Shown in pieces: positions 36,323 through 52,822 of a stretch of 53,963 bases of DNA. The notes beneath the pieces were generated by a model that worked only from the letters and a program-made list of their open reading frames with translations, searched no databases and was not told the origin of the DNA. The DNA is from Candidatus Woesearchaeota archaeon (GTDB lineage: Archaea; Nanobdellota; Nanobdellia; Woesearchaeales; SKGA01): NCBI GenBank assembly GCA_046543005.1, contig JBKHAG010000003.1, positions 1-53,963 on the forward strand, read 5' to 3'. A program made the translations under genes and the position numbers. Positions within the stretch are counted from its first letter, which is position 1. Each line of letters begins with the position of its first letter.

Positions 36323-36375
36323 AAATAAAGCAACACCAACAAAAAAAGTAAAATAGAAAAATAACGAGTGAAATT

Positions 36376-37590
36376 ATGATTATAGGAATTGTAGGAAAAC
36401 CAAGTGTTGGAAAAAGCACCTTTTTCAAAGCGGCAACGCTTTCTGAAGTAGATATTGCAAATTATCCGTTTACAACAATTAAACCAAACCACGCAGTTGG
36501 TTTTGTAAAAATTACTGATGTTGCTCAGCTTGAGCCGTATAATAAACGAGCAAATCCTCGAGCAGGATATGTTAAGGGTCCTTGGCGATTTGTTCCTATT
36601 GATTTAGTTGATGTTGCAGGTCTTGTTCCTGGAGCACATAAAGGCGAAGGAATGGGCGGTTCTTTTCTTAATGACCTTAATCAAGCAAATGCTCTTATTC
36701 ACGTTATTGACGTTAGTGGCAGCGTTAATGAAAAGGGAGAAGCAGTAACTCCTGGAAGTTATGATCCTGCAAAAGATATTGCTTTTTTAGAAGAAGAATT
36801 AGATCATTGGTACGCAAGCATTTTGCAAACTGGTTGGATGAAATTTGTTCGAGTTCTTGAACAAGAAAAAGCCGATGTTGCAAAAGCAATAACTAAACAA
36901 ATGAGTGGCGTGGGCGTTAGTGAAGACATTGCTAAAACTGTTTTAAAAAACTTAAACCTATTAGAAAAATCTGCAAAAGATTGGGATGAAAAACAACGCT
37001 TCGCTCTCGCAGGAGAGTTACGAAAAAAAACAAAACCAATAGTTATTGCAGCAAATAAAGCAGATCATCCCAAAGGTCAAAAAAATATAAAACGCTTACA
37101 AGAAGAATTTCCCCAGTATAGTATAATTCCTACCAGTGCAGAGTCAGAGCTTGCTCTTCGAGAAGCAGAAAAAAAAGAATTAATAGAATATATTTCTGGT
37201 GAAAAAAAACTTATCATTACTGCAAAAGGTAAAAAAGAGTTATCCGAGCAACAACAAAAAGCACTCGAGTTCATTCAAGAGCATATTTTAAAAACGTATG
37301 AACAAGGAACAGGTATTCAAGCAGTTCTTAATAATGTAGTTTTTGATATTCTAAAAAGAAAGGCAATTCACCCAGGAGGTGTTGGAAAGCTCGAAGATAA
37401 AGACGGTAATACACTGCCTGATTGTTTTTTAATGAAACAAGACGCAACAGCTCTTAATTTTGCCTACACACTCCACAGCGATTTTGGAGATAATTTTGTA
37501 AAAGCAATTGATGTGAAAAAAAATATTCCTATTGGAAAAGATACTGTGCTTAATCATCTAGATATTATTGAAATTAAATCGACAAAATAA
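36376..37590 (+). CDS. Obg-like GTPase/ATPase, YchF/Ygr210 subfamily with C-terminal TGS domain
   Basis: G1 GKPSVGKST, G2 YPFTTI, G3 DVAGLV, NKAD, and a C-terminal TGS-like region (DATALNFAYTLHSDFGDNFVKAID). Confidence 0.85.
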   Translation: MIIGIVGKPSVGKSTFFKAATLSEVDIANYPFTTIKPNHAVGFVKITDVAQLEPYNKRANPRAGYVKGPWRFVPIDLVDVAGLVPGAHKGEGMGGSFLNDLNQANALIHVIDVSGSVNEKGEAVTPGSYDPAKDIAFLEEELDHWYASILQTGWMKFVRVLEQEKADVAKAITKQMSGVGVSEDIAKTVLKNLNLLEKSAKDWDEKQRFALAGELRKKTKPIVIAANKADHPKGQKNIKRLQEEFPQYSIIPTSAESELALREAEKKELIEYISGEKKLIITAKGKKELSEQQQKALEFIQEHILKTYEQGTGIQAVLNNVVFDILKRKAIHPGGVGKLEDKDGNTLPDCFLMKQDATALNFAYTLHSDFGDNFVKAIDVKKNIPIGKDTVLNHLDIIEIKSTK

Positions 37591-37695
37591 TTTTGAAGAT
37601 TAAACAATTGTATTACTTAAAATGATCAGAATAAAAAATACGAATGTAATTAAACATTTAGAAAAAATAATTTAAAAAAGAAAAGTAAAAATAAT

Positions 37696-38181
37696 TTATT
37701 TTCTAGCAACACCATAGTGTTGTAAAAGTGCTTTATAGCGGTCAAAATCTTCTGAACGACGAAACGCTTCAATTTGTTCAGGAGGAAGTTTACTTAACCA
37801 TTTATGCATTGCTTTTAGCACTTCTTTTGTTTCCTCTTGAACTAAAGACTCTTTATGTTCTACTGTTGCAGAGATATCTTCTTGAGAAATTTCTTCAATA
37901 TCTTCATCGTCAACAGACTTTTTTGAAGAACTAAATAATTTTTGAAAGAATCGAGCCATAAGATTTTGTTTTTTATTTTCTAAAGTTTCAACTTCTTCGT
38001 CAAGGTTTTGGACTTCTTCTTCTATAGATTCTAATTCGTCATATGTTTGAGGATCAGAAACGTGTGCTTCTTGAATTTCTTCTTCCATTAACTCAGCAGT
38101 TTTTGATTTCTTTTTGAATAAAAAGCCAAAAAAAGAGACTTTCTTATTATCATCATAAACGGTTGAACTTGTCACACTCAC
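37696..38181 (-). CDS. Hypothetical acidic coiled-coil protein
   Basis: The ORF is open. The track start is GTG with no SD. The frame stays open a further 46 codons upstream to a stop at 38321-38323, and GGGTGG is followed by in-frame ATT ATT (38313/38310), so the true N-terminus is unresolved. Confidence 0.4.
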   Translation of the reverse strand: MSVTSSTVYDDNKKVSFFGFLFKKKSKTAELMEEEIQEAHVSDPQTYDELESIEEEVQNLDEEVETLENKKQNLMARFFQKLFSSSKKSVDDEDIEEISQEDISATVEHKESLVQEETKEVLKAMHKWLSKLPPEQIEAFRRSEDFDRYKALLQHYGVARK

Positions 38182-38382
38182 ATCTGGAACACGTTGAGGT
38201 TCTTCTGATTTTGAGAAAAATGTTTTTGGAAAAAATGAACGTGAATTCCTTCCTTTTCGTTGCGCAATGTATGCGTCTAAATCGTTGTTGAAATCGTTTT
38301 TTCTTGCAATAATAAACCACCCTTAATGTGTATATGAAAAACCAACACGTTATAATTTATAAGTCTTTTGCAAAGAAAAAGG

Positions 38383-38536
38383 TGGGGACGCTGGGATTCG
38401 AACCCAGATCAACAGGTCTCTTCCTTAAAGCGAAAAACTTCAACAGACCTTTGGCCTAATCATTGCCATAGAAATTCTATAGCTCATCGCTCCAAAACTG
38501 GAGCCCATTATTCTAGCCAGGTTATACTACGCCCCC
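38383..38536 (-). tRNA. tRNA-Trp(CCA) with 80-nt canonical (37/38) intron at 38418-38497
   Basis: Minus strand reads GGGGGCG TA GTAT AACCTGGCTA GAAT A ATGGG CTCCAG[80 nt]A CCTGT TGAT CTGGG TTCGAAT CCCAG CGTCCCC A. Anticodon is at 38499-38501. The BHB has central helix CTCC/GAAG (1 mismatch), bulges AG|T and AG|A, and a 9-bp inner helix TTTGGAGCG/CGCTTTAAG. The D-stem is weak (an A.A mismatch plus 2 G:U). Confidence 0.8.
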
Positions 38537-38561
38537 GATAGAGAAAACAAACTATAAAGAG

Positions 38562-38570
38562 TTTATAAAA
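38562..38570 (-). promoter_or_regulatory. TATA-box-like element upstream of tRNA-Trp
   Basis: TTTTATAAA on the minus strand lies about 25 nt upstream of tRNA position 1. Confidence 0.4.
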
Positions 38571-38583
38571 GCTTTGATTCATA

Positions 38584-39087
38584 TTAATTAGAAAATTGAT
38601 AAGAAGATAATTGCTCTTTTAATTGTTTACGAGCGTGAAAAATTCTTGATTTTAAAGTCCCCAAGGGAATACCTATATCTTTGGATATTTTGGCATATGA
38701 ATACCCTTGAATAAATTTTTCAAAAGGTTCTTTATATAATGAAGACAAAGAATTTATTTCTCTATTAATATCTTCTTGAACAAATAAATCAGTAGCAGTT
38801 TTTGTATGCGCAAGAGCAGTTGATTCTGAAGAATCAAATGTTGCTTGAAATACAACTTTTTGGGATCGGCGATACTCATTTATGAAAGTGTTATACATTA
38901 TGGTCTTAGACCATGCTAAAACACTTTTGTTATAGGTATACGTATTTTTTTTCTCTAATGCCTTTAGAATAGTTTCTTGACGAAGATCTTTTGCCCGTTG
39001 ATCATTATTATTTGTTAAATGTAAAGCAAAAGCATATAATTTTTCTTGAGAAGCAATAAGTTCGTCAATAACTGTATCTTGATTCAA
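38584..39087 (-). CDS. ECF-type sigma-70 family protein
   Basis: Region 2 (RAKDLRQETILKALE..VLAWSKTIMYNTFINEYRR) and region 4 HTH (GYSYAKISKDIGIPLGTLKSRIFHARKQLKEQL) are both present. The track N-terminus (to 39195) is an alternate frame of the upstream Lys-rich tail. The likely start is TTG at 39087, 5 nt after AAGGTGA and 22 nt after the upstream stop. Confidence 0.8.
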   Translation of the reverse strand: MNQDTVIDELIASQEKLYAFALHLTNNNDQRAKDLRQETILKALEKKNTYTYNKSVLAWSKTIMYNTFINEYRRSQKVVFQATFDSSESTALAHTKTATDLFVQEDINREINSLSSLYKEPFEKFIQGYSYAKISKDIGIPLGTLKSRIFHARKQLKEQLSSYQFSN

Positions 39088-39109
39088 AATAATCACCTTA
39101 TAAAAATAA

Positions 39110-41770
39110 TTATCTTCGTTTTTTAGTTGTTTTTTTTGAAGACGGTTTTTTTGTTGTGCGTTTTTTAGAAGACTTTTTGGTTGTTTTTTTAGCAACTTTT
39201 TTAGTAGTTTTCTTTTTTGATGATTTTTTCTTTGAAGACCTTTTAGGTTTTTTCTTAACAGGTATTTTTTTCTTTGAAGATGTTTTCTTCGTTGAGGAAG
39301 TTAAGGATAATGACTTAGGTTTAGACGCTTTTTTTGATACTACTTTTTTTACACTGCTCTTTTTTTGTTGAGTTGATTTTTTTTGTCGAAGGGAAAAAAG
39401 TAACCAAGCCATCATAGCTGTAAGTAGGAATAATCCCCAATTAATATAACCACAAGCAAGATCAAAAAATTCTATTGGAGTGTAATCTTCAACAGGCATA
39501 ACGTCAACTACAATTACATCGCTTTGCGCAGTGCTATTATATGAGTCTGTTGCAGTCATTTCAATGGTTGTTGAGCCTGACCAATCTTGGGCAGATACTA
39601 ATTTTAAAATGTGGTCTTGAGTAAAAAGCTCATACTGTAATTCAGATTCATTAATTGAAGTTACATTGTAAGAAACAATATCATCGTCTGGATCTGCGAA
39701 AAAATTCGTTAAATCAAAGGTGCGAGCTCTATCTTCTTCTAAAATAATATGTCGCGTTGAATTTGTTTGAGTATCGTATGTTGTGTAAAAGGTATCTCTT
39801 GTTGGGATTCCTTGAGTATAGAGTAAAGCTGCTGCACTAAGAAAAATAAGTGCTAAAAGCACAAGCCCTAATACTTTTCGTCCAACGAATTTTCTTCCTT
39901 GACTTGCTCGAATAATAAGTACGATAAGTGCAACCAGAAATAAAGCGCTTAATCCCATTGCAATTTTTCGACAAGTTGATTGCTCCATAAACCAGTTGTA
40001 CGCATTTACGTGCCAAGGATGATCTTGTTTTAATACAATAGATAAGGATTTGCTGATTTGTACGCCTGAATAGTCTTGAGTAAAAACTAAAGTTGGTTGA
40101 CTGACTAAATCTTCTGAAGCGTTAATCATACTAAAATCTTGAGTAAGCGTGTCTTGATTGACATCAAAAATAATTTGTGTAGATTCACTTTTTCCTAATG
40201 CGATTTGAGAAGTGTTTTCTAAGGACAAATAAGGAGTTAGATTTTGCACCGCAACATCGTATACACCATATCGAAGACCATCATTTTTTACAGTAAAAAC
40301 GAGTTGTTCTGTACTCATATGTTTTGTTCTTGAAGAGGGTGTGACAGTTAGAGAGTCACAATCTTTTACAGGTTCTACTTTGAATACTGCTGTATTTACA
40401 TCAACAATATTTCCTGCCCTGTATGTTTCTATAGTCACTTCATGACTTGTTGTTTTATTAGGGTTTGGAAGTGTGTAAAGTAACTCAATATCTTGTTCGT
40501 CGTGAGCACCAACATGAATGCTTGTTTGATTTAATTCAAAAAATTCAGGCGCGTAAAGAACAAAACCAACATCTGTTTCCCTAACACCATCATTTTTTAC
40601 AGTAAATCGTTGATTACCTGTATCAAGTCCGCATCGAGAAAATTTTTCGTGTGGTGCGTAATTATATGTTGAAAGTTCATAACAATTAAGTAAACTAGCA
40701 TTAATTGATAGTTCTTTTACAATGTCGCCATTTTGTGAAATTGCTTCTACATTAATTGTATACTCTCCTTCTTTTGAAGGCTTTACAGCTTCAACGGTTA
40801 CAGGTATAGTTACTGATTTGCCAGCTTCTAAGGTTATGTGAGGAGAAGGTTCACCTTCAATTTCTGGGTAAGTTGCGTGTACAAAAGAAGGTGCATCTAT
40901 ATCTATAGTGTATGTTTCAGTAAAGTTATTATCGTTTTGTAAAAAGAGAGGAAATTCTAATCCATCTCGAACACAAGAAGATATATTTTGAGGTCCTAAA
41001 AGCGAGAAAGGATACTCTTGAGGAATATTAAGTTGTTGTGTGAGTTGCGCTTTAAGTTGGGAACCTTGTGCTTGAACATCATATGCTAATTCATGCTCGC
41101 CGTACACATCACAAGGTAAATTATAATGCACATATACATTTGCTTTACTTCCTGAAGGAATAATAATTGAATCTGATGAAAGAGTTGCGTAATCTTCAAA
41201 TTTTTCTACATCTATAGTGTATTCTTCAGTGAATAATCCAACGTTGTGAATTTGAAAAGAAGTTGAGAACGGCTCACATACTTCTTGAGTAAGCGTTGTG
41301 TTGTATAAACCTGTTACGAGGTTTTGACACGTTTTAAAATTAAGTTCTTGAGTAAGTACTTGAGTGTCACCATATACAGATGTTATTTGAATATCAAGGT
41401 CTTGACTACCTGAAACACCACAAGGTGCATTAATGTATAAAAGGATTTCTTCAGATGCTCCTGGAGCGATGTCTACTTCTGTTGTTGAAAGTACTACATA
41501 GTCTTTATTTGTTTGAATAGAATACTGGGAAGTGTATGAACCTGTATTGGTGATTTGAATAGAATCAGTCATAGTTGCACAAGTACAAAGTTCAAAACCA
41601 CTATAAGGAGAACTAACACTAAATCCTTTGTTCATATCAATAAGAGTCACATGAATACTTGTAGAATTATCAACTGAGTAAGCACCTTCTTGAGCAAATT
41701 CTGCTGATGTGAAGGGTAATGTGATTGCAAGGAGTGCAATAAGTGCAAGTATCATCCATATTTTTTTCAT
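39110..41770 (-). CDS. Large surface protein: signal peptide, repeated Cys-bracketed beta-sandwich-like modules, three TM segments, Lys-rich cytoplasmic tail
   Basis: N-terminal signal MKKIWMILALIALLAITLPFTSA. Repeated approximately 95-aa modules (C..ITNTG..Y.I......L....I.PG.....Y...PC). TMs are near residues 605, 640 and 765. The final 90 aa are a K/S/T-rich tail. Confidence 0.6.
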   Translation of the reverse strand: MKKIWMILALIALLAITLPFTSAEFAQEGAYSVDNSTSIHVTLIDMNKGFSVSSPYSGFELCTCATMTDSIQITNTGSYTSQYSIQTNKDYVVLSTTEVDIAPGASEEILLYINAPCGVSGSQDLDIQITSVYGDTQVLTQELNFKTCQNLVTGLYNTTLTQEVCEPFSTSFQIHNVGLFTEEYTIDVEKFEDYATLSSDSIIIPSGSKANVYVHYNLPCDVYGEHELAYDVQAQGSQLKAQLTQQLNIPQEYPFSLLGPQNISSCVRDGLEFPLFLQNDNNFTETYTIDIDAPSFVHATYPEIEGEPSPHITLEAGKSVTIPVTVEAVKPSKEGEYTINVEAISQNGDIVKELSINASLLNCYELSTYNYAPHEKFSRCGLDTGNQRFTVKNDGVRETDVGFVLYAPEFFELNQTSIHVGAHDEQDIELLYTLPNPNKTTSHEVTIETYRAGNIVDVNTAVFKVEPVKDCDSLTVTPSSRTKHMSTEQLVFTVKNDGLRYGVYDVAVQNLTPYLSLENTSQIALGKSESTQIIFDVNQDTLTQDFSMINASEDLVSQPTLVFTQDYSGVQISKSLSIVLKQDHPWHVNAYNWFMEQSTCRKIAMGLSALFLVALIVLIIRASQGRKFVGRKVLGLVLLALIFLSAAALLYTQGIPTRDTFYTTYDTQTNSTRHIILEEDRARTFDLTNFFADPDDDIVSYNVTSINESELQYELFTQDHILKLVSAQDWSGSTTIEMTATDSYNSTAQSDVIVVDVMPVEDYTPIEFFDLACGYINWGLFLLTAMMAWLLFSLRQKKSTQQKKSSVKKVVSKKASKPKSLSLTSSTKKTSSKKKIPVKKKPKRSSKKKSSKKKTTKKVAKKTTKKSSKKRTTKKPSSKKTTKKRR

Positions 41771-41910
41771 TGTGATATCCTCAATTTTTTACTTGTTTGT
41801 TTTTATTAATAGGTAATGTGATTGTGTGAATTATTAGGAATATGATGTTTAAGTATATTTGGATAATGAAAAATAAAAATTAAAAAAAAAAGAAAAGTTT
41901 AGACATACAT

Positions 41911-43194
41911 TTAGTAGTATGTTTTGTCTTCGTCGTCTTCGTCGTCTTCAGAGCCTTTTAGTTTGTTAAAACCAACTACAAGACCAACAATAATTAAAAC
42001 GATTACTAAAACGATAAGTCCAATTTCTAAAACTTTTTTTAAGCCATCCCAACCAGATGCGCTATCTGCTTCTACAACGGATGCTGTTAAAGGAATATTT
42101 TTACTTTCAGTACCATCGTCGATGGATAATTGGAAGTATTTTTCTCCAACAGATGCTTCGTCATCAGCAGTTACATACATGTAAGCGGTTGCTGTGCTTT
42201 GTGCAGGAACTACTACAGATGCACTAGGGTCGATTCGGTATGTTCCCCATGCGTCCATTCCAGATACTGCAATTGCATATGTTTTATCAGAGTTTGCGTC
42301 GTTTGCAATAGTGATAGGATATACTGCACCATTTCCTTGAACTTCAACTGATTGTGAAGTAGGAATGGTTACCTGTGTTGTTTCTTGTGCACTATTTGAC
42401 TCAACATCTCCAAGAACAGTTACGGTTGAAGTATGTGTGGTTGTTTCGTATTCATCGAATTTTACGGTGTATACAATATCATATACTCCAGCTTGTGCGT
42501 CGCTTGGGAATCGAAGGATGATTTTTTCGAATGTTTCAGCTTCGTCAGCTTCTAATTCGTCAAGAGTTTCTGTATCTCGAATGTTAAGTTCAGGTACATC
42601 AACGCTAAGAGTTACAGAATCTAAATCGTAATCTCCCATGTTTTTTATCTTAACTAAAGCACTAAGTGCTCGTCCAGGTAAAACTTCGTCTGCTGGGCTT
42701 AAGTATGCTTCTTTGATAACAACTGCATCATCAGCTTCTACACCTTGAACGTCAAGGTTATATTCCATTGTATAGGAAACGCTGTTTTTGTCAGTTACGA
42801 AAATTCGAAGTTTGTAATCTTCTCGATCCATATTCATTGGAATTTCCAAGTCAAGATCTACACTTCGTGTTCGGTCTGCTTCCAGATCAAAAACGTTAGA
42901 TGTTTGGATTACACTTTCTGTTTCGTACTGGCTGTATTGGTATCCAAAAATACCTGCAGTAACTTGAACATCTTCTACATCCGCAAGAGCGTTTACACGC
43001 ACACGGATAGGCAATTCTTCGCCTCGTTTAACTTCGAGAACATAATTGCTTTGGTTGTATGGGTCTAATTGTTCGCCATCGATTTTCAAGTAATCTACTT
43101 GTAAGTCGTTGGTTGCACTAACTAAACTCATTGGTACAATGGTTAATGCAAGTAATGCCACCATTAATACTCCGAAAAATTTATTTGAAACCAT
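41911..43194 (-). CDS. S-layer/CARDB-like surface protein with C-terminal TM anchor and acidic tail
   Basis: Signal peptide, acidic beta-rich repeats (VKIKNMGDYDLDSVTLSVDVPEL), a C-terminal TM (IGLIVLVIVLIIVGLVVGF) and the tail EDDEDDEDKTYY. Confidence 0.55.
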   Translation of the reverse strand: MVSNKFFGVLMVALLALTIVPMSLVSATNDLQVDYLKIDGEQLDPYNQSNYVLEVKRGEELPIRVRVNALADVEDVQVTAGIFGYQYSQYETESVIQTSNVFDLEADRTRSVDLDLEIPMNMDREDYKLRIFVTDKNSVSYTMEYNLDVQGVEADDAVVIKEAYLSPADEVLPGRALSALVKIKNMGDYDLDSVTLSVDVPELNIRDTETLDELEADEAETFEKIILRFPSDAQAGVYDIVYTVKFDEYETTTHTSTVTVLGDVESNSAQETTQVTIPTSQSVEVQGNGAVYPITIANDANSDKTYAIAVSGMDAWGTYRIDPSASVVVPAQSTATAYMYVTADDEASVGEKYFQLSIDDGTESKNIPLTASVVEADSASGWDGLKKVLEIGLIVLVIVLIIVGLVVGFNKLKGSEDDEDDEDKTYY

Positions 43195-43308
43195 TTTTTT
43201 AAAACCCCCATTTGTATAGGTGTTGATATTGTGATATAATCACAAAAACACAACTCCTATTTAAATGTTTCTGTTTTGTAACTATTATTGAGTAATTACA
43301 AAACACCT

Positions 43309-45792
43309 TTAGGCAGTCACCTCAAGGTATCCTGCTTTTACTCGCCGAATTTCATTGTCTGAGAACTCAATATAAGGATAATATACTCCTTCTTCTACGT
43401 ACTCAGGAACGAAACCGTGAATTTGTATTGTTGTTCGTTCTCCATCTTCAAGGCTAACGGCAGAACTTTTCATTCGTACGCCAAATTCTGGAAGAGTGAA
43501 GCTCATTCGAATTCCATCAAGATCAATTCCAGCATAATTTTCAATATCTGCTTGAATTATAATGGATTCTCCTGCCCGTGCTTTTTCAAAATCATGCCCG
43601 TAAACCCCAAATGATCGGATTTTAAGACCTGATTCTGGGCCAAAAGCATAAGCCTCAGATTCTTCCTTAGGAAGAACGGTAATTGGTTGGACCGCAATAG
43701 CATTATTGCCATTAGAATCTACAACCACTAAAACAAGGAAGTAATTTCCTTCTTGTGTAAATGTATGTTGTGCGGACATGCTTGTTGCTGTTGCAAGAGG
43801 AACTTGCGCAGCATCAGTTACAGTCCATTGATAAGAAGCAATATCCACGTTAGGAAAAGGCGAATAACTTTGTGAGCCATCCATAACAAATTCTTCTCCA
43901 ACGTATGCTACGGTAGGTGCATCAATAACTGCGACTGGATTTGCACTATCAACTACTTCAATATTAAGCCAAGCATCGCTTGCCCATTGACCATCGTAAG
44001 CAATTACTCGCACACTTGTTTGACCAACTGCGTTAAGATCTGCAGCTACATCGTCTCCTTGTAAATACGCTTCTAAAACTGACGAATCAGTAAATCCTGT
44101 ATCAAGGAAAAAGGTAATTTGATCACCGTCTGCATCAAGAACATGAGTTGGCAAATTATCAACTACTGTTACGTTTCCTTGAGAGAGGGGAAATGTGTAA
44201 TTTGAATTAAGTAACAATTCAGGTGCGGAATTTGATGCGCTTGAATTATACACTAATACTGTAAGTGTTTGCGTAACAGAGAGTTCTCCATCATAGGCGA
44301 TTGCGTCAACAGTTGTAAGACCTACACCTTCTAAACCACACTCCACTTCGTTGCTGTTTGTTAATGAACAATCAATTACAGACGCATCGGTAAATCCATC
44401 ATCTACAAAATACATCATGTTGTCGCCGTCCATGTCATGTGTAACATCATCAAGATCAACAAGATCTACAGGACTTTGTTGGTTAATATCAAACATGTAA
44501 AATTGTGTTAAGTTTACAAATTCTGGTGCGTTATTTGTGGTGTTTTCATCATATACCAAAATATAGATATATACAGATGTAGTATCCACTCCATCAGTTG
44601 CGCTTATCTCTACTGGTGCAAGACCAACAGACTGTAAGTCGCAATCAATAACGCTTCCTGCTAAAGAACAATCTGCAACAGCAGAGTTTCCATTAACTAA
44701 AGAGTAAGATAATTGATTACCATCTACATCATATGCAACATCATCTAAATCTACAACGTCAACAGATCCTAATTGTAAAGGATAGGAGTAAAATTGACTC
44801 ATGTTAAATTCTGGTGCGTTATTTAGTGAATCATCAGTAACTTGCACAGTTATAGTAATTGAGGTTTGGTCAATACCATCAGATGCAATAACATCAAAAG
44901 TTGTTTGACCAACACCTGTTAAGTCTGCGTGAAGTGTTGAACCTGTAAGACTTGCAACTAAAACATCCGCATCAGTTGATGTTTGATCAAGTGAAAATGT
45001 AATAGCGTCACCGTCTGCATCACTTACAACATTGTCTAAATCAACCATATCTACTTCATCAGCTGATAAAGGATAGGAGTAAAATAGTTGCATTGCACTG
45101 TCAAATTCTGGTGCGTTGTTTGTTGAAGGTGTTACTTGTACTGTGATTGTTGCACTTGTTTGTGCTTGACCATCTGATGCGATAACATCAAACGTTGTTT
45201 GGCCAACACTTTGTAAATCACATTGTACTTCAGATCCTGCTAAGGAACATGTTGCAACGTCAGGATTTGATCCTGCAGTGATATCATATGTTAGTGCGTC
45301 ATCATTTTCATCAAAAGCAACACTGTCTAAATCAACAAGTGTTACTGGTGAAGGTGTTGATAAGGGATAAGAATAAGATAAATTTAATCCGTTAAAAACA
45401 GGTGCAGTGTTTACTACACTAAGTTCAAGCGTATCTACACTTTGTGATCCCGTCTCTAAATTTTGGGCAAGACCATGGATGATGTAATTCCCGTCAAGAC
45501 CTTGTGTTGAAAAAGAATCAAAAGTAAAATCAATTCCGCCAACATCAGTAGATTGCACTAAAGTTTCAACTACTTGATAATCTTGCGTGTAAAGTGTAAT
45601 TGTTGAAGATACATTATATGAGCCAAATTCAAAGCTCGTGTATTCGTAAGCAACATCAGTTCCACGAGGCACAGATTGCGCCGCAGAACTTCCCCCTTCA
45701 TATTGAAGAGTCATAAGAACAGCAGAAACTGAACTTAATGTTACTATACCTAATACAAAGACGATTGCCATGAGTAAAGGTAATTTTTTCAT
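43309..45792 (-). CDS. Secreted adhesin-like protein: five cadherin-like repeats + PKD-like domain + C-terminal beta domain
   Basis: Signal peptide. Five approximately 97-aa repeats start NNAPEF..FYSYPL..VDLD.V..D.DGD. The DNA period is about 290 bp (AATTCTGGTGCGTT at 44520, 44808, 45105). A PKD-like segment (MDGSQSYSP..YQWTV..GNYFLVLVVVDSNGN) follows. Confidence 0.65.
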   Translation of the reverse strand: MKKLPLLMAIVFVLGIVTLSSVSAVLMTLQYEGGSSAAQSVPRGTDVAYEYTSFEFGSYNVSSTITLYTQDYQVVETLVQSTDVGGIDFTFDSFSTQGLDGNYIIHGLAQNLETGSQSVDTLELSVVNTAPVFNGLNLSYSYPLSTPSPVTLVDLDSVAFDENDDALTYDITAGSNPDVATCSLAGSEVQCDLQSVGQTTFDVIASDGQAQTSATITVQVTPSTNNAPEFDSAMQLFYSYPLSADEVDMVDLDNVVSDADGDAITFSLDQTSTDADVLVASLTGSTLHADLTGVGQTTFDVIASDGIDQTSITITVQVTDDSLNNAPEFNMSQFYSYPLQLGSVDVVDLDDVAYDVDGNQLSYSLVNGNSAVADCSLAGSVIDCDLQSVGLAPVEISATDGVDTTSVYIYILVYDENTTNNAPEFVNLTQFYMFDINQQSPVDLVDLDDVTHDMDGDNMMYFVDDGFTDASVIDCSLTNSNEVECGLEGVGLTTVDAIAYDGELSVTQTLTVLVYNSSASNSAPELLLNSNYTFPLSQGNVTVVDNLPTHVLDADGDQITFFLDTGFTDSSVLEAYLQGDDVAADLNAVGQTSVRVIAYDGQWASDAWLNIEVVDSANPVAVIDAPTVAYVGEEFVMDGSQSYSPFPNVDIASYQWTVTDAAQVPLATATSMSAQHTFTQEGNYFLVLVVVDSNGNNAIAVQPITVLPKEESEAYAFGPESGLKIRSFGVYGHDFEKARAGESIIIQADIENYAGIDLDGIRMSFTLPEFGVRMKSSAVSLEDGERTTIQIHGFVPEYVEEGVYYPYIEFSDNEIRRVKAGYLEVTA

Positions 45793-45815
45793 TTTATTTT
45801 CACCTGCTTTTAGAT

Positions 45816-47018
45816 TTATTGTTTATCCACTTTTTTGTAAGTGTTTGGTGTATATGTGATTCCCATTTGAATAGTTGGTTCGCTTGGACCAAAAAATAAG
45901 TGATTTGCTCCTAAGGAAAGCCCTACATTATCAGCTACAGGAATTTGGACGTTAAAGTATGCTCCGTCTAAAACCATGTTTGAACCTGTTTCTAAACTTA
46001 CAGGATCTGCTGATTCTCCTTTACTAAGAAGAACGCTTGACGCGTCAGGTTGAGAAAACATATAATCAGTTCGCGTGGTTGTAATATTTTCACCTTGTGT
46101 GGAAACATTAAGTCCTGTAGAAACTGCACAATTAAGTCCGTCTTTTGCTTGAATCCATTCACCGTCTTTGAATACTTTATCTTTTACTGGAATAATAAAG
46201 TTATAAGAAAGACCAGTACTAAATAAGTCTTGAGTAGATGTTTGATTATATTTTTCAACTTTTTGTGTTGCGTGCATGTTTGGAGCTACTTGAGTCCATT
46301 GCGTATACTCAGAAGATTGAAGTTGTTCTTCAGAAAGCACTTTAGGAGAAAAGAAATTTACTGCTGCTTGACCTAAAATGATGTGTCGTTTTAAGTCTTT
46401 ATCTTTAATTGTCCAAAGTGGTGCAGACACACTAGCATAACCGCTTGTATGGGGTTTGTATGCTTTTTCTCCATTTTCAGAAAGCACATTATCAATTCCA
46501 ACAACAGCTCCGGAAGAAAAAGTCATTTTACCAAAGTAATCTCGTTGTTGTGTAAGTTCATTATTTAATGAATCTGCAACTTTTTGACTTTCATCGATTT
46601 TTTTATTTTTACCTGCTCCTTCAAATGCAATGTTTTTTGCAGCGTCTCGATTCATGTCAGGACATTGCTCCATTAACATTTCATAGAGTTTTACGTCTTG
46701 TTGTTGTGGAAATTTCCATTCAAACTGACTTTGACCTGAAAGATTAACATTACCTAAACTATCATAATCTACTGCAAGAAAAGTAGGCTTATCTGCAATA
46801 TTTGCTTCTACTAATGCATTTTCTTCTAAAAAGTTTGTAAAACATTCATTTTTGAAAAGAGATGTTGTGTCTCCTTCTTGAACATATTCAATTACTTTAT
46901 CATGTTTGAGTTCTACACTATCAGGAATTTCCTGATATTGATTGCTTTGTCCGAACGCAGAGCTTGTTAGTGCCGCAAGGCCTAGTCCTGCAATAATAGA
47001 TTTTAATTGTTTAACCAT
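45816..47018 (-). CDS. Secreted hypothetical protein
   Basis: Sec-type signal MVKQLKSIIAGLGLAALTSSAFGQ. Beta-rich, with no TM anchor and no recognisable family. Confidence 0.5.
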   Translation of the reverse strand: MVKQLKSIIAGLGLAALTSSAFGQSNQYQEIPDSVELKHDKVIEYVQEGDTTSLFKNECFTNFLEENALVEANIADKPTFLAVDYDSLGNVNLSGQSQFEWKFPQQQDVKLYEMLMEQCPDMNRDAAKNIAFEGAGKNKKIDESQKVADSLNNELTQQRDYFGKMTFSSGAVVGIDNVLSENGEKAYKPHTSGYASVSAPLWTIKDKDLKRHIILGQAAVNFFSPKVLSEEQLQSSEYTQWTQVAPNMHATQKVEKYNQTSTQDLFSTGLSYNFIIPVKDKVFKDGEWIQAKDGLNCAVSTGLNVSTQGENITTTRTDYMFSQPDASSVLLSKGESADPVSLETGSNMVLDGAYFNVQIPVADNVGLSLGANHLFFGPSEPTIQMGITYTPNTYKKVDKQ

Positions 47019-47030
47019 TTTTTATTACCT

Positions 47031-47774
47031 CTAGTTATCTTGATTAGTTTTAGTTTTCATTTGAGCGCCCATTTCGAGTTCGCTTGGTGTTGGTGTAAAT
47101 GAGCCAACAGTATTCCAAGGAGATGTTGTCCCATATTCTGTGTTGAGTAAACCTAAAGCGTATGCTTCTCGTTTACCTTCAATAGATGTTGTGTCCACGT
47201 AATATGTTGAACCATTAATTTCATGTTCTAAACATCCCGCACAATCAGATGTACTATAGGTATAGTCACCAGTTGCTGATGAGGGAATGTTTGATGAAGT
47301 TGAAGACTTATTTGATGACTGATGTGAAGACCACTTTTTGCTTGGAGTGCCTTGAGTTGCTGATTCTTTAACAGATGCAGTATCTTGGAAATCAACCATA
47401 TAATTATCTAAAGAACCTTGCTCTTTAACAGTTTTAATTTGTGCGGTATCAGTAATAGAGTCTCGCACGTAACCGTTATGATCTGTAATTGTTGCAACAG
47501 AATCGTTAATAATAGTATATATAGAAGGTATTTGGTATGATCGCACCGCGTTACTATCTGTTACTGACTGTAGTGTTGAGTCAATTGAAGATAAGTGAGT
47601 GTTAAGAGTATCTGTTTGCACAGAATCTTGTTGTGTTTGTTCTACAGTTAATTCATTTTGATTTTTAAGTAAGTGTGTTTGCTTTGCAGTATGATATCCA
47701 AAGAAACCTAAGGTACCTAAACCTAGAAGAATACCTGCACCAATAGCAATTTTTTTATTATTATTTTTTGACAT
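47031..47774 (-). CDS. N-terminally anchored Ser/Thr-rich hypothetical protein
   Basis: MSKNNNKK plus TM IAIGAGILLGLGTLGFFGY, followed by S/T/Q-rich extracellular sequence. ATG at 47774 is preceded by GGGGGA. Confidence 0.5.
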   Translation of the reverse strand: MSKNNNKKIAIGAGILLGLGTLGFFGYHTAKQTHLLKNQNELTVEQTQQDSVQTDTLNTHLSSIDSTLQSVTDSNAVRSYQIPSIYTIINDSVATITDHNGYVRDSITDTAQIKTVKEQGSLDNYMVDFQDTASVKESATQGTPSKKWSSHQSSNKSSTSSNIPSSATGDYTYSTSDCAGCLEHEINGSTYYVDTTSIEGKREAYALGLLNTEYGTTSPWNTVGSFTPTPSELEMGAQMKTKTNQDN

Positions 47775-48178
47775 GTCAATCCCCCAAATCACTTTTTGTT
47801 TGCTACCTTATTTGCAATTCGTCAATTGCATTGTACTGCTAAGTAGTGATTCGTAGAAAAGCAAAATCAAGTATTATTTATAAACTTTATGTTTTTGTTG
47901 TCTTTTCGTAGTGAATACAGTCATTAGTTCGTGTTGTTGTGCACATACAAACAATATACTTTGCGTATATTATTTAAAATACCAACAACTTATTCTGCGC
48001 ACGGCATGTAAAAAACCCTTTAAAATAGTGCCTAACTCTTTTTTATATTCAATAACTAAGAATAAGCAGACAACTATTCAATAGACGCAAAAAGTATATA
48101 AACACACAGTTAATTTACTCAGAAGAGGCACAAGAGGTATAAAGTGCCACACAAAACAAGTAAGAGGAAGCGATTCAT

Positions 48179-50926
48179 ATGAAAGACACACATTCTGCAC
48201 ACAAACACATCCCCCACAACTCATCACAACAAAAAAAATCTTCAAAAAAGAAAAGAACAAACAGCCGATGGATTCAACCAACAATTATTGTTGCACTCAT
48301 TCTTTTTAGTATTATTATTAGTACAACGCTTCGTATGGCTCCGGATGAATTAAGCATTACTCAAGACTGGGCAGAGCAAGTATATAGTGCGCAAGTCAAA
48401 GAGCAAATCGCAAAGCAAGTACAAGCAGAATATCCTCACCTTCCAGACTCACAAAAGGCAGTGTATGTTAATGAACAATTTGATGAAGCGTGGCAACAAC
48501 AAAGACCGCTTATTCAAGAGCAAATAGATGAAACTGCAAACTATTTTAAAAGTCGATTACAAAACGACGATAATCAAACGTATTTGTTAGCAATTGATCC
48601 TTACCATTGGTTTAATTATGCTAAAAATTTTGAAGAATACAACCAAATGGGCGATAGCGTAAATGAAGAAGGAAAAAGTATTTTTTCACTACGAAATGGG
48701 CGAGAAGGAGAACCAACAGTATTTAATTTTCATCCTGTATTAATAACAGTCGTTAAAGATATAGGTCAAGTATTTGATAAGGATTTTTCATTACTTCGAG
48801 CAGCATACTTAATTCCTGTTTTTATTATTGCTCTTGCAATCATCCCGGCGTTTTTTTTAGGAAGAAAAATTGGCGGAAATGTAGGAGGTTTTTTAGCAGG
48901 GCTTATCTTAGCCATTAACGGTGCATTACTTGGTAGGACACCAGCAGGTTTTTCAGATACTGACGCATATATTATTTTTTTCCCACTCTTGATTATGTGG
49001 ATAGGTATTGAAGCAATGACGACAAGAGATGTACGGTGGAAAATCGGTTTAGGGGCGCTAGCTGGTGCAGTATTTACTGTGTTTATGAGAACATGGAACT
49101 CCGCATGGCATATTGGGAGTATTTTTGCAGGCGTTCTTGGAATTTATTTTATTGTCAGTCTAATTCAAGAACGAAAAGAATTTTCAAAAAAGAATGTCAA
49201 AACATTTTTTACGTCAACACGAAGTGGAAAAACAGTTCTTATTGGACTTAGTTTTATTCTTGCAACAATGATGTTTGGAAGTTTTATTATGGGTTTAGGA
49301 ACACCAGATGGCTTGAGTCTTTCTAATGCTATTGAACCAGTTAAATCTATAATTACATCACCCTTTGGAGCAACAAGCATTAAAAGTGTTGGAGAAGCAA
49401 CAGTGTTTCCAAACGTTTTAACAACCGTTGCAGAACTTAATGCAGGAAGTTGGGAACAAATAATTACCAGTGTTGGTGGAAAATTATTATTCTTATTTGG
49501 GCTCTTAGGAATTATTGCAACCTTTTTTTTAAAAACAGAAGACGAACATATGGAAACTCGTTACGCAATTATGCTCACGTTTTGGTCTGTCGTACTAATT
49601 ACAGCAGGACTTATGAGTAGCAGGTTTATTGCACTTCTTGCAGCACCATTCGCGCTTGCGTTTGGAGCACTCTTTGGAGTAACCTATAAAAAAGTAAAAG
49701 ATAAAATAAAAATTCCTCAAATCAAAAACACACAGCTCAAACATATTGCTCTTGGTTTAGGAATTGGAATTATTGCGATTCTTTTCTTACTTGCGCCGTT
49801 TACTAGTGCAAAACAAATCGCCAAAAACGAAGTTCCTAGTATGAACGATGCTTGGCAAGAAAGTCTTCATACCATCGATAACGCTACAGACGACGGAGTT
49901 ATTACAAGTTGGTGGGATTTTGGACACTGGTTCGTAAGCGAAGCAAATACTCGCGTAACATTTGATGGAGGTCATCAAGGTAAACGAATTTATTGGGTTG
50001 GAAATTATTTAACCAATAGTAATTCATCTGATGCAGATAATACTTTACGCATGCTTAATTGTGGACAAGAAGAAGGATTTAATCGACTTGTTGAACTCAC
50101 AAACGATGAATACTCAGCTGTAATGATTCTTGAAATTATTCAAGATCAACCTCTTGAAGAAGCAAAAACTACGCTTTCACAAGAAGGATTTAGCGATGAA
50201 GAAATCGCTCGAGTAGTTGAAAAAACGCATTGTAGCACGACAGAAGTTTTAGATCAATTCGTTATCGTATCTGAAGATATGATTGGTAAAGCGCCAGTTT
50301 GGGGCCACTTTGGAAATTGGGATTTTGATAAAGCTAAAGCATACAATATTGTAAGAAAAAGTAAAACTATTGACGATGCGATTAGTACATTGCAATCAAC
50401 ATTTAATTACGATGAGAAAAAAGCAACGCAAATGTATTATGATATTACTGCTTTACGTAAGGCCGATGTTGATTCTTGGATGAGTCCTTGGCCTTCATAC
50501 GTTACCACACAACCAGTAACTTGTGAAGAAAACACAAAAAACTATACGTGTACAATTAACAAAATTGTTGAAGAACAAGGAAGTAATCAACTGGTTATTT
50601 CACAAGCAGTTGTTTCTAAAGTAAGTCCTCAAGATAGTTACATGGTTCTTAGCACAGTTTCTAAGGGACAAGTTGTAAACAAACAACAAACAGTCTTTAA
50701 AGAAATAACAATAAATGGACAAACGACAACAAGCAAAAAAGATGGATACGCAATTGTTATTGAAGATGGTAAAGCAATTGTTGCAGACCCGCTAGTAGCA
50801 AACTCGCAATTTACAAAATTGTTCTTCTTTGAGGGTGCAAGAACTACAGGATACGAAAAAATAAGCGATGTAAGAGATTTTACAGGCGCAAGAATTATTG
50901 TTTACAAAAAAACATTCGAGGAATAA
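48179..50926 (+). CDS. aglB: Archaeal oligosaccharyltransferase AglB (STT3 family)
   Basis: 915 aa, 13-TM-like N-terminal half, the canonical catalytic motif WWDFGHW (WWDYG variant) and a large C-terminal periplasmic domain. Confidence 0.9.
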   Translation: MKDTHSAHKHIPHNSSQQKKSSKKKRTNSRWIQPTIIVALILFSIIISTTLRMAPDELSITQDWAEQVYSAQVKEQIAKQVQAEYPHLPDSQKAVYVNEQFDEAWQQQRPLIQEQIDETANYFKSRLQNDDNQTYLLAIDPYHWFNYAKNFEEYNQMGDSVNEEGKSIFSLRNGREGEPTVFNFHPVLITVVKDIGQVFDKDFSLLRAAYLIPVFIIALAIIPAFFLGRKIGGNVGGFLAGLILAINGALLGRTPAGFSDTDAYIIFFPLLIMWIGIEAMTTRDVRWKIGLGALAGAVFTVFMRTWNSAWHIGSIFAGVLGIYFIVSLIQERKEFSKKNVKTFFTSTRSGKTVLIGLSFILATMMFGSFIMGLGTPDGLSLSNAIEPVKSIITSPFGATSIKSVGEATVFPNVLTTVAELNAGSWEQIITSVGGKLLFLFGLLGIIATFFLKTEDEHMETRYAIMLTFWSVVLITAGLMSSRFIALLAAPFALAFGALFGVTYKKVKDKIKIPQIKNTQLKHIALGLGIGIIAILFLLAPFTSAKQIAKNEVPSMNDAWQESLHTIDNATDDGVITSWWDFGHWFVSEANTRVTFDGGHQGKRIYWVGNYLTNSNSSDADNTLRMLNCGQEEGFNRLVELTNDEYSAVMILEIIQDQPLEEAKTTLSQEGFSDEEIARVVEKTHCSTTEVLDQFVIVSEDMIGKAPVWGHFGNWDFDKAKAYNIVRKSKTIDDAISTLQSTFNYDEKKATQMYYDITALRKADVDSWMSPWPSYVTTQPVTCEENTKNYTCTINKIVEEQGSNQLVISQAVVSKVSPQDSYMVLSTVSKGQVVNKQQTVFKEITINGQTTTSKKDGYAIVIEDGKAIVADPLVANSQFTKLFFFEGARTTGYEKISDVRDFTGARIIVYKKTFEE

Positions 50927-50930
50927 AAAA

Positions 50931-51632: not shown

Positions 51633-51636
51633 CCTA

Positions 51637-52708: not shown

Positions 52709-52822
52709 AAAAAAACCTCTTACCTAAATAAAGGTAATAGTTTACCTAAATGAAGGTAATTAATAAAAGTTTCGATAAATACAAAGAAAAAGTTTAAATA
52801 AGAAAGAAAATATGAAAGAAGA

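What the first reader, a model, noticed from the sequence alone, without database searches (positions are those of the whole stretch)
38584..47792. ECF sigma-70 factor gene embedded in an archaeal genome, at the end of a five-gene surface-protein cluster
The gene at 38584-39087 has both diagnostic ECF sigma blocks: region 2 (AKDLRQETILKA...AWSKTIMYNTFINEYRR) and the region 4 HTH (YSYAKISKDIGIPLGTLKSRIFHARKQL). Clearly archaeal features lie on both sides. A BHB-intron tRNA-Trp lies 48 bp away, and AglB lies at 48179. A histone, Hjc and EndA are in the same window. A local assembly chimera therefore looks unlikely.

Archaeal RNA polymerase is recruited by TBP/TFB and has no known use for sigma factors.

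The gene starts at TTG after AAGGTGA, 22 nt downstream of the stop of an 886-aa protein. That protein has a signal peptide, repeated extracellular modules, TM segments and a Lys-rich cytoplasmic tail. Upstream on the same strand lie:
- a TM-anchored S-layer-like protein;
- an adhesin with 5 cadherin-like repeats and a PKD-like domain;
- two unknown secreted or anchored proteins.

The arrangement recalls bacterial ECF sigma plus transmembrane sensor/anti-sigma surface signalling. However, the gene order is reversed and I see no ZAS (HxxxCxxC) motif. Spot counts suggest higher GC here (about 38%) than elsewhere (about 30%), which would be compatible with acquisition as a block.
Basis: partly seen in the sequence, partly recalled or inferred. 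Interest (0 to 1): 0.75.

Follow-up and report, generated by a model that had tools for sequence, protein, structure and literature searches.

The report
Bacterial-type sigma factor gene in an archaeon
A real, intact bacterial-style (ECF) sigma factor gene sits at the end of a native cell-surface operon in a tiny DPANN archaeon and its sister lineage; such genes were already reported in this group, their job in an archaeal cell is unknown, and here the gene looks maintained rather than decaying.

Summary
38584-39087(-) encodes a 167-aa two-domain ECF sigma factor that passes the Pfam and NCBIfam cut-offs. The contig is a Woesearchaeota (DPANN) archaeon. It is not a chimera: an independent NCBI assembly is 99.96% identical and has the same junctions.

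The closest sigma relatives are all Bacteroidota ECF sigmas, at no more than 44% identity. They usually have no adjacent anti-sigma and often sit next to light/carotenoid genes.

The adhesin, S-layer-like and 886-aa genes are a native Woesearchaeales locus. About ten other lineages have it without any sigma. So the cluster was not acquired as a block, and the GC argument fails: the sigma gene is 28.8% GC with host-like GC3.

A sister lineage has a sigma in the same slot. It is only 36% identical, although its neighbours are 79-94% identical. Both copies are intact and keep 32-34 of the 39 family-conserved residues. That argues for selection, or for allele swapping at this slot.

The 886-aa protein has no anti-sigma domain. 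Its lysine-rich tail also occurs in a relative without sigma (L026).

Sigma-70 genes in Woesearchaeota were reported by Castelle et al. 2021, so this is a new member of a known, still unexplained kind.

The parts
38584..39087 (-). ECF (group 4) sigma-70 family gene, 167 aa, TTG start. Sigma-2 domain is about residues 1-85, a disordered linker 86-100, sigma-4 about 98-166.
   Evidence: Pfam and NCBIfam hits above cut-off. Sequence matches to solved ECF sigma structures: 5uxx 1.8e-14, M. tuberculosis SigH 1e-12. AlphaFold model with mean pLDDT 80.5, and the top Foldseek PDB hits are all ECF sigmas. It keeps 34 of 39 positions that are at least 90% conserved in 101 bacterial family members.
39093..39099 (-). 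Shine-Dalgarno-like AAGGTGA, 5 nt upstream of the TTG start.
   Evidence: Read. An SD-like core (GGTG, GAGG, AGGT and similar) occurs upstream of 21 of 39 window genes. The sister-lineage sigma has GAGGTGG plus a TTG start.
39110..41770 (-). 886-aa membrane/surface protein: signal peptide, Ig-like (FixG_C-type) modules, TM segments and an 81-aa Lys-rich cytoplasmic tail. Its stop lies 22 nt upstream of the sigma start, so co-transcription is probable (inferred).
   Evidence: Orthologues at 23-40% identity in sigma-less relatives and 79% in L216.
41911..43194 (-). 427-aa TM-anchored S-layer-like protein, the most conserved gene of the native surface locus.
   Evidence: NF033506 PACE-CTERM putative S-layer protein, 94 bits, below the 110 cut-off. 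Pfam FixG_C, NPCBM_assoc and DUF4625. 43-64% identical in 12 Woesearchaeales loci.
43309..45792 (-). 827-aa adhesin-like protein with five roughly 95-aa repeats and a PKD domain.
   Evidence: Conserved upstream of the S-layer gene in relatives.
45816..47018 (-). 400-aa secreted protein of unknown function, specific to this lineage.
   Evidence: No Pfam or NCBIfam hit. Only three clusters among 5.8 billion. This search led to loci L213 and L216.
47031..47792 (-). 253-aa N-terminally anchored protein of unknown function, specific to this lineage.
   Evidence: 61% identical in L216. Absent from more distant relatives.
38383..38536 (-). Intron-containing tRNA-Trp(CCA), 47 nt downstream of the sigma stop. 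A BRE/TATA-like box (aaagcTTTTATAAA, about 38574-38561) sits between them.
   Evidence: Rfam RF00005, 33.3 bits. Sequence read. The same tRNA sits next to the 886-like gene in L027 and L084 with no sigma between them.
48179..50926 (+). AglB/STT3 oligosaccharyltransferase, divergently oriented. It marks the far end of the surface locus.
   Evidence: Pfam STT3, 86.7 bits. In the same relative position in L216, L225, L226, L231 and L236.

Best explanation
This is a horizontally acquired, Bacteroidota-type ECF sigma gene. It became fixed at the 3' end of a native Woesearchaeales cell-surface operon (adhesin, S-layer-like protein, 886-aa membrane protein) in the ancestor of two sister lineages.

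Shown:
- The protein is an intact two-domain ECF sigma.
- The host is archaeal and the join is real.
- The surface genes are native and occur without sigma in about ten other lineages.
- The sister lineage carries a sigma in exactly the same slot.
- Both copies are uninterrupted and keep the family's conserved core-binding, -10 and -35 recognition residues.

Inferred:
- The gene is read through from the 886-aa gene and translated from a host-type SD plus TTG start.
- Selection maintains it. Alleles may also be exchanged at this slot, because the 3' three-quarters are far more diverged than the flanks.
- With no bacterial core RNA polymerase in the cell, it most likely acts as a stand-alone sequence-specific DNA-binding regulator through its sigma-4 HTH and sigma-2 surfaces. 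It is probably not a canonical initiation factor, and it does not form a sigma/anti-sigma pair with the 886-aa protein.
For: Domain and fold:
- Family hits, solved-structure matches and the structure model all point to an ECF sigma.

Archaeal host:
- The window holds archaeal SRP RNA, EndA, Hjc, FEN1 and AglB.
- The GTPase 36376-37590 is up to 76% identical to Woesearchaeota MAGs.

Continuity:
- L213 (GCA_964409805.1) is 99.956% identical over 18,148 nt and has the sigma in place.

Donor family:
- The nearest relatives (36-44% identity) are Bacteroidota: the named or context-checked hits, L001, and nearly all of the best 80 of more than 544 genome hits.
- These genes sit next to MerR/B12-binding, crtI, crtB and photolyase genes, or stand alone.

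Native locus:
- The order GTPase / 161-aa gene / tRNA / 886-like / S-layer / adhesin is kept in L026, L027 and L084 (L029 keeps the genes but in a rearranged order), without sigma.
- A sigma HMM hits only L213 and L216 among the 14 loci tested.

Sister lineage L216:
- Neighbours are 79-94% identical in protein (one neighbour, p253, is 61%), and a sigma lies 25 nt after the 880-aa gene. The same arrangement occurs in three sequencing runs.

Signs of maintenance:
- The two sigmas are 72% identical at family-conserved columns and 23% elsewhere. They retain 34/39 and 32/39 conserved positions; bacterial members range from 82 to 100%.
- In a neutral simulation the ORF stays stop-free in 3.6% of runs at 0.1 substitutions per site and 0.3% at 0.2. 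Flanking dS between the lineages is 0.24-0.9.
- GC3 (0.16) and the SD motif are host-like.
Against: - No expression data are available, and no target sites were identified.
- The two archaeal sigmas are not robust sisters in NJ trees; both are long basal branches. Two separate captures, or a swap of alleles, cannot be excluded. In that case the argument that the ORF survived a long residence is weaker.
- Synonymous divergence in codons 41 to the end (pS 0.69) exceeds that of the flanks (0.44; Fisher p = 1e-5). Codons 1-40 match the flanks (0.35). That fits a mosaic origin, although NG86 estimates are unreliable at this level of amino-acid divergence.
- Retention at conserved positions is at the low edge of the bacterial range.
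- If only DNA binding mattered, conservation of the sigma-2 core-binding motif (DLxQET) would not be expected.
- The 'stand-alone regulator' role is inference only.
Confidence: 0.5

Rival explanations
1. Functionless passenger. The sigma genes are recent, possibly independent captures of Bacteroidota DNA into a recombination-prone slot beside tRNA-Trp. They have no role in the archaeon and simply have not yet decayed.
For: - The slot is variable. L026 carries a permease-methyltransferase plus a 139-aa ORF there, and L027 and L084 carry nothing.
- The sigma is confined to two lineages out of about eleven.
- The two alleles are as far from each other as from the bacterial members.
- The 3' part has excess synonymous divergence.
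- A 13/15 direct repeat brackets the ORF.
Against: - No donor above 44% identity exists among 5.8 billion protein clusters or the GTDB species genomes. A recent transfer would therefore need an unsampled donor, twice.
- Both genes have a host-like SD plus TTG start and host-like GC3.
- DNA homology between the lineages runs through the 886-aa gene into the first 115 nt or so of sigma. At least the 5' part is therefore orthologous and old, yet the ORF is intact.
Confidence: 0.22
2. True sigma-like initiation or RNAP-binding factor. The protein uses its conserved sigma-2 surface to dock on an RNA polymerase clamp coiled-coil. The target would be the archaeon's own Rpo1 (competing with TFE or Spt5) or the RNAP of a bacterial partner.
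For: - The core-binding and promoter-recognition residues of the family are retained in both archaeal alleles.
- The archaeal clamp coiled-coil is homologous to the bacterial beta-prime clamp helices. This is established knowledge and was not tested here.
- Castelle et al. note that the genes are prevalent in Woesearchaeota and leave the mechanism open.
Against: - No precedent exists for sigma-dependent archaeal transcription.
- The protein has no secretion signal, so nothing points to export toward a partner.
- No ECF-type promoter was identified, and no bacterial RNAP subunit lies in the window.
- L216 has Phe in place of a family-conserved Arg in sigma-4.
Confidence: 0.1
3. Surface-signalling pair. 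The 886-aa membrane protein would sense something outside the cell and sequester or release the sigma through its cytoplasmic tail, like an anti-sigma factor.
For: - The 22-25 nt adjacency and shared strand recur in both sigma-bearing lineages.
- The tail and the sigma are the fastest-evolving parts of the locus. The last 80 codons of the 886-aa gene have dN 0.51 against 0.15 for the whole gene, and sigma has dN 0.68.
Against: - No anti-sigma domain (RskA, zf-HC2, FecR and similar) was hit in Pfam or NCBIfam.
- The 886-like gene is present without sigma in about ten lineages, and L026 shows the same Lys-rich tail.
- The tail is low-complexity, 48% K/R, with pI 12. The sigma has pI 9.1, which is unfavourable for binding.
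- The bacterial donor family mostly lacks adjacent anti-sigmas.
Confidence: 0.07
4. Assembly or binning artefact: a bacterial fragment mis-joined into an archaeal contig.
For: The closest homologues are all bacterial.
Against: - The gene is flanked at 22 nt and 47 nt by archaeal features that are syntenic in relatives.
- The junctions are identical in an independent assembly that carries 8 SNPs.
- The sister allele was assembled in three separate runs.
- GC3 equals that of the host genes.
Confidence: 0.01

Closest known systems
Sigma-70 family genes reported in DPANN archaea, especially Woesearchaeota (fam00359; Castelle et al. 2021, Front Microbiol, PMC8204110)
   Same: A bacterial-type sigma gene on a verified archaeal contig from the same phylum-level group, with no anti-sigma partner and an unknown role alongside TBP/TFB/TFE.
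   Different: I could not test whether this gene belongs to fam00359, because the held supplementary files hold no match for 'fam00359' or 'sigma'. The passage on sigma factors in that paper does not mention this locus, its fixed position behind a surface operon, the hyper-divergent sister allele or the Bacteroidota affinity.
Bacteroidota ECF sigma family often encoded next to a MerR/B12-binding (CarH/LitR-like) regulator and crtI/crtB/photolyase genes
   Same: The best sequence relatives, at 36-44% identity. The two-domain size of about 165 aa is the same, as are the conserved motifs DLxQET, W..IM.NTFI..YR and IPLGT.K.RI. These genes usually have no adjacent anti-sigma.
   Different: The archaeal copies are long-branch outliers. 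They have no MerR/B12 or carotenoid neighbours. They sit in an archaeal operon with an SD plus TTG start, and the cell has no bacterial core RNAP.
Structurally characterised ECF sigmas (M. tuberculosis SigH/SigE/SigL, Bartonella RpoE, B. subtilis SigW, E. coli sigma-E)
   Same: Sequence matches down to 1.8e-14 and Foldseek probability 1.0 over both domains.
   Different: 22-30% identity. SigW, E. coli sigma-E and Bartonella RpoE were solved in complex with anti-sigma partners (RsiW, RseA, NepR). No such partner is encoded next to the archaeal gene.

Membership tests
Sigma-70 family, group 4 (ECF) | Sigma-2 domain (Pfam PF04542) above the gathering score | tested here: met
   35.3 bits against a cut-off of 24.
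Sigma-70 family, group 4 (ECF) | Sigma-4 domain (PF08281 or PF04545) above the gathering score | tested here: met
   PF08281 scores 39.1 bits against 25.7. PF04545 scores 19.3, below its 24.1 cut-off.
Sigma-70 family, group 4 (ECF) | Only two domains (no region 1.1 or region 3), about 160-200 aa, and a match to the ECF superfamily model | tested here: met
   167 aa. TIGR02937 scores 54.5 against a cut-off of 42.9. The model shows two helical domains joined by a disordered linker. The top PDB fold hits are all ECF sigmas.
Sigma-70 family, group 4 (ECF) | Binds bacterial core RNA polymerase and directs initiation at -35/-10 promoters | not testable with these tools
   The conserved residues are retained, but there is no biochemical or co-folding test, and the host has no bacterial core enzyme.
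Sigma-70 family, group 4 (ECF) | Co-encoded cognate anti-sigma factor (typical, but not universal) | tested here: not met
   There is no ORF between the sigma stop and the tRNA. The neighbours have no anti-sigma domain. L216 has a permease downstream.
Named NCBIfam ECF equivalogs and subfamilies (SigM, SigH, SigW, SigZ, GFO_1088 and others) | Score above the family-specific cut-off | tested here: not met
   The best is SigM_subfam at 68.9 bits against 147.95. All 25 best listed named models except the TIGR02937 superfamily model fall below their cut-offs.
Bacteroidota light/carotenoid-cluster ECF sigmas | Genomic linkage to a MerR/B12-binding regulator and crt or photolyase genes | tested here: not met
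   The window and L216 neighbours are surface proteins, a tRNA and a permease. The linkage is seen in the bacterial loci L001, L024, L025, L148 and L161.
Bacteroidota light/carotenoid-cluster ECF sigmas | Phylogenetic placement inside the family | tested here: inconclusive
   The NJ tree places the window sigma inside the Bacteroidota clade with 64-66% bootstrap support. The L216 sigma is basal. No ML tree was possible.
Anti-sigma factor (ZAS, RskA, FecR or RseA types), as a candidate role for the 886-aa protein | Cytoplasmic anti-sigma domain or HxxxCxxC motif | tested here: not met
   Pfam and NCBIfam give only Ig-like modules. The cytoplasmic part is an 81-aa K/S/T-rich tail.
DPANN sigma-70 protein family fam00359 (Castelle 2021) | Membership in that protein cluster | not testable with these tools
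   Neither 'fam00359' nor 'sigma' occurs in the held supplements.

The most novel reading that the evidence does not exclude
A bacterial ECF sigma has been domesticated in a Woesearchaeales lineage as a working part of archaeal gene control. It would be kept in the same operon as a fast-evolving cell-surface module. It would either dock on the archaeal RNAP clamp in place of TFE or Spt5, or be diversified allele by allele to retune which genes it binds. That would be the first functional sigma-type factor in Archaea.
Probability: 0.1. Interest if true: 0.85.

Novelty: new member of a known kind. Interest (0 to 1): 0.5.

Why it matters
Archaeal transcription is thought to run without sigma factors. 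It has been known since 2021 that Woesearchaeota carry sigma-70 genes, but not what they do.

This locus offers a concrete, testable case. The sigma gene has a fixed position behind a conserved surface operon. It was assembled independently several times. It is intact in two lineages despite extreme divergence, and it has a clear bacterial source family that works without an anti-sigma.

If expression and binding partners can be measured, this pair of alleles could show whether such genes are used by archaea or merely tolerated. If they are passengers, the locus is still a clean example of repeated cross-domain gene flow from Bacteroidota into DPANN genomes at a tRNA-adjacent variable slot.

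Tried and rejected
Searches that found nothing useful:
- ARAGORN found no tRNA. Rfam was needed.
- A phmmer search and a family HMM against about 65 Woesearchaeota loci around the conserved GTPase found no sigma.
- A viral-contig scan gave only hits at 36% identity or less, nothing closer than Bacteroidota.
- A metagenome scan with patterns specific to the archaeal pair returned only two relatives; the one examined (L223) has a Bacteroidota gene context.
- The Castelle 2021 supplements hold no match for 'fam00359' or 'sigma'. The ECF reclassification paper does not mention archaea.

Ideas dropped:
- Upstream regions of the bacterial relatives show repeated TGTTTAAC/GTTAAACA boxes. These are probably LitR/CarH operators, not an ECF promoter I could transfer to the window. 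I did not attempt a target-promoter search.
- I first concluded that the sigma was a singleton orphan insertion. I withdrew this when the search with the 400-aa neighbour uncovered the sister lineage L216, which has a sigma in the same slot.
- P0064, the tree neighbour of the L216 sigma, is bacterial and has its own TM anti-sigma-like ORF. It is not an archaeal relative.
- A sharp recombination breakpoint could not be shown. Nucleotide identity decays gradually from the Lys-rich tail into sigma.
- The TATA-like TTTTTATAA 8 nt upstream of the sigma start is too close to serve an SD-led transcript. It is not conserved in L216.

Full report
**1. The observation**

- The minus-strand ORF ending at 38584 is an ECF sigma factor by every test available.
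  - Pfam Sigma70_r2 scores 35.3 bits (cut-off 24) and Sigma70_r4_2 scores 39.1 bits (cut-off 25.7).
  - NCBIfam TIGR02937 sigma70-ECF scores 54.5 bits (cut-off 42.9). No named equivalog passes its cut-off.
  - phmmer against PDB sequences gives 1.8e-14 to Bartonella RpoE and about 1e-13 to M. tuberculosis SigH.
  - An AlphaFold model has mean pLDDT 80.5. It shows two helical domains joined by a disordered linker at residues 86-100. Its 25 best PDB fold matches are all ECF sigmas.
  - It aligns with the N-termini of the homologues.
  - AAGGTGA lies 5 nt upstream, and the start is 22 nt after the stop of the 886-aa gene.
  - The longer ORF back to 39195 merely overlaps the Lys-rich tail in another frame.
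- The neighbouring features are as described.
  - An intron-containing tRNA-Trp(CCA) lies 47 nt downstream, at 38383-38536.
  - AglB, EndA and Hjc are confirmed, and the window also holds an archaeal SRP RNA.

**2. Host and continuity**

- The rest of the window is ordinary archaeal housekeeping: LeuRS, GAPDH, PPDK, SMC, RNase HII, FEN1, DnaG-type primase and an RFC-like ATPase.
- The GTPase at 36376-37590 is up to 76% identical to MAGs labelled Woesearchaeota or Nanoarchaeota. Some relatives are deposited as 'uncultured Methanosarcinales'.
- An independent NCBI assembly (GCA_964409805.1, contig CAYPEB010000003.1, locus L213) matches window 35816-53963 at 99.956% identity, with 8 mismatches. 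It carries the sigma gene in the same place.
- A chimera is therefore excluded.

**3. Source of the gene**

- Among 5.8 billion protein clusters the only near-identical hit is the window's own protein. Everything else is 42% identical or less, and every hit with a source name or a checked genomic context is bacterial.
- A genome scan with the family alignment found more than 544 relatives. Nearly all of the best 80 are Bacteroidota: Prolixibacteraceae, Marinilabiliaceae, Sphingobacteriales, Flavobacteriales and Chitinophagales. The highest identity is 44%.
- In those bacteria the gene often follows a MerR/B12-binding regulator and precedes crtI, crtB and photolyase genes. Otherwise it stands alone. 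An adjacent anti-sigma was not seen in the loci examined.
- NJ trees put the window protein on a long branch within this family, with 64-66% bootstrap support.

**4. The surface cluster is native and was not co-acquired**

- Relatives keep the order GTPase / 161-aa coiled-coil gene / intron-tRNA / 886-like gene / S-layer-like gene / adhesin.
  - In L027 and L084 the tRNA directly follows the 886-like gene.
  - In L026 the gap holds a permease-methyltransferase and a 139-aa ORF instead.
- A scan with the S-layer alignment recovered 12 Woesearchaeales loci with the same core. A sigma HMM hits none of them.
- The 'higher GC' of 42-46 kb is matched elsewhere in the window. It sits mainly in first codon positions. 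The sigma gene is 28.8% GC with GC3 of 0.16, like the host genes.

**5. A sister lineage changes the picture**

- Searching with the 400-aa neighbour found a 20.9-kb contig, L216.
- Its genes compare with the window as follows:

| Gene | Protein identity to window |
|---|---|
| AglB | 80% |
| 253-aa protein | 61% |
| 400-aa protein | 80% |
| 827-aa adhesin | 85% |
| 427-aa S-layer-like protein | 91% |
| 886-aa protein | 79% |
| glycosyltransferase | 94% |
| sigma (169 aa in L216) | 36% |

- The L216 sigma lies 25 nt after the 880-aa gene and also has an SD plus TTG start.
- It occurs with the same flanks in three sequencing runs.
- Its own nearest relatives are again bacterial. One sits next to a lycopene cyclase gene, and another has a TM anti-sigma-like ORF.
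- The two archaeal sigmas are no closer to each other than to the Bacteroidota members.
- blastn homology between the lineages (81% identity) runs through the 886-aa gene into the first 115 nt or so of sigma and then fades.
- Synonymous differences tell a mosaic story.
  - In sigma codons 1-40, pS is 0.35, which matches the pooled flanks at 0.44 (p = 0.41).
  - In codons 41 to the end, pS is 0.69 (p = 1e-5 against the flanks, p = 0.006 against codons 1-40).
  - This suggests that the 3' part was replaced from a diverged allele. NG86 estimates at this amino-acid divergence are unreliable, so I treat this as suggestive only.

**6. Signs of maintenance**

- The window sigma keeps 34 of the 39 columns that are at least 90% conserved in 101 bacterial members. 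The L216 sigma keeps 32 of 39. Bacterial members range from 82 to 100%, with a median of 97%.
- The two archaeal proteins are 72% identical at those columns and 23% identical elsewhere.
- In a neutral substitution simulation with host base composition, the ORF stayed free of stop codons in 3.6% of runs at 0.1 substitutions per site and 0.3% at 0.2. Flanking dS between the lineages is 0.24-0.9.
- If the gene has sat here since the two lineages split, it has been kept open by selection.
- If instead it was captured or swapped more than once, the same slot has been refilled with the same kind of gene. That also points to use. Both readings rest on inference.

**7. Mechanism**

- Shown: an intact ECF sigma gene with host-type translation signals, lying 22 nt behind an operon gene.
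- Inferred: it is co-transcribed with the 886-aa gene. The TATA-like box just upstream is too close to the start and is not conserved in L216.
- The 886-aa protein is not a recognisable anti-sigma.
  - It has no anti-sigma domain.
  - Its cytoplasmic part is an 81-aa tail that is 48% K/R, with pI 12. The sigma has pI 9.1.
  - A similar tail is seen in L026, a relative without sigma.
- With no bacterial core enzyme in an archaeon, the most economical role is a stand-alone DNA-binding regulator acting through sigma-4 and sigma-2.
- Retention of the core-binding motif keeps a genuine RNAP-docking role alive as a low-probability, high-interest alternative.
- A passenger role remains a serious rival.

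**8. Comparison with what is known, and verdict**

- Castelle et al. 2021 (PMC8204110) reported sigma-70 genes as 'particularly prevalent in Woesearchaeota'. They ruled out mis-binning, found no anti-sigma factors and left the mechanism open. The ECF reclassification paper does not mention archaea.
- The kind is therefore known, and this is a new member of it.
- What is added here:
  - a fixed genomic position behind a conserved surface operon;
  - a Bacteroidota source family that lacks an anti-sigma;
  - a hyper-divergent or mosaic sister allele;
  - evidence against decay.
The block-acquisition and anti-sigma readings are not supported.

Noticed in passing
window 38574-38588 and 39079-39093: A 15-nt direct repeat, 13/15 identical and spaced 505 nt, brackets the sigma ORF exactly. 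On the minus strand the copies read ATTATTTTGAATCAA at the start and ATTAATATGAATCAA just after the stop. It could be an insertion or recombination footprint. However, this AT-rich 1.3-kb stretch gives about 20 such repeat families, and the empty sites in L027 and L084 lack the motif.
   Followed up: partly
window 38383-38536; L026 12478-12631; L027 12297-12422; L084 2005-2130: The tRNA-Trp carries an 84-nt insert in the window (shorter in L027 and L084) after the anticodon. GCGATGAG and ATGATTA motifs are conserved in all four genomes. They resemble the box C/C' elements of the known archaeal pre-tRNA-Trp intron that guides 2'-O-methylation (recalled from memory, not tested). ARAGORN misses all of these tRNAs.
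   Followed up: no
window 39110-39352 (C-terminal 81 aa of the 886-aa protein): The cytoplasmic tail is 48% Lys/Arg and 35% Ser/Thr, with pI 12, and has KKTTKK-type repeats like a histone H1 tail. A similar Lys-rich tail is seen in L026, a relative without sigma. It is the fastest-evolving part of the gene (dN 0.51). It might bind nucleic acid at the membrane.
   Followed up: partly
L026 12734-15268; L216 18545-20626: The same roughly 700-aa amino-acid-permease/methyltransferase fusion occupies the slot beside the 886-like gene in L026. There it is on the opposite strand and accompanied by a 139-aa secreted ORF. In L216 it follows the sigma gene. The region between the surface operon and tRNA-Trp is therefore a rearrangement hotspot.
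   Followed up: partly
window 45816-47792: The 400-aa and 253-aa proteins have signal or anchor sequences but no family hit. The 400-aa protein has only three clusters among 5.8 billion (self, 80% and 49% identity). In L225, a more distant relative, a stretch of about 3.7 kb without homologues of these two proteins lies between AglB and the adhesin.
   Followed up: partly
window 30606-31718: A SurA_N plus PPIC rotamase protein, a bacterial periplasmic-chaperone architecture, is encoded here. It is conserved in several Woesearchaeota relatives (26-40% identity). This is another bacterial-type gene that is stably resident.
   Followed up: no
loci L026-L028, L032, L036 and others: Many public MAGs titled 'uncultured Methanosarcinales archaeon' (binchicken and SRP co-assemblies) are the closest relatives of this Woesearchaeota-like contig. 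True Methanosarcinales hits are only 39-40% identical. The deposited taxon labels look wrong.
   Followed up: no
L024 7852-8000; L025 8586-8790; L001 1748-2000; L023 7670-8000: Upstream regions of the Bacteroidota relatives carry repeated TGTTTAAC/GTTAAACA boxes. These are probably operators of the adjacent MerR/B12 (CarH/LitR-like) regulator.
   Followed up: no
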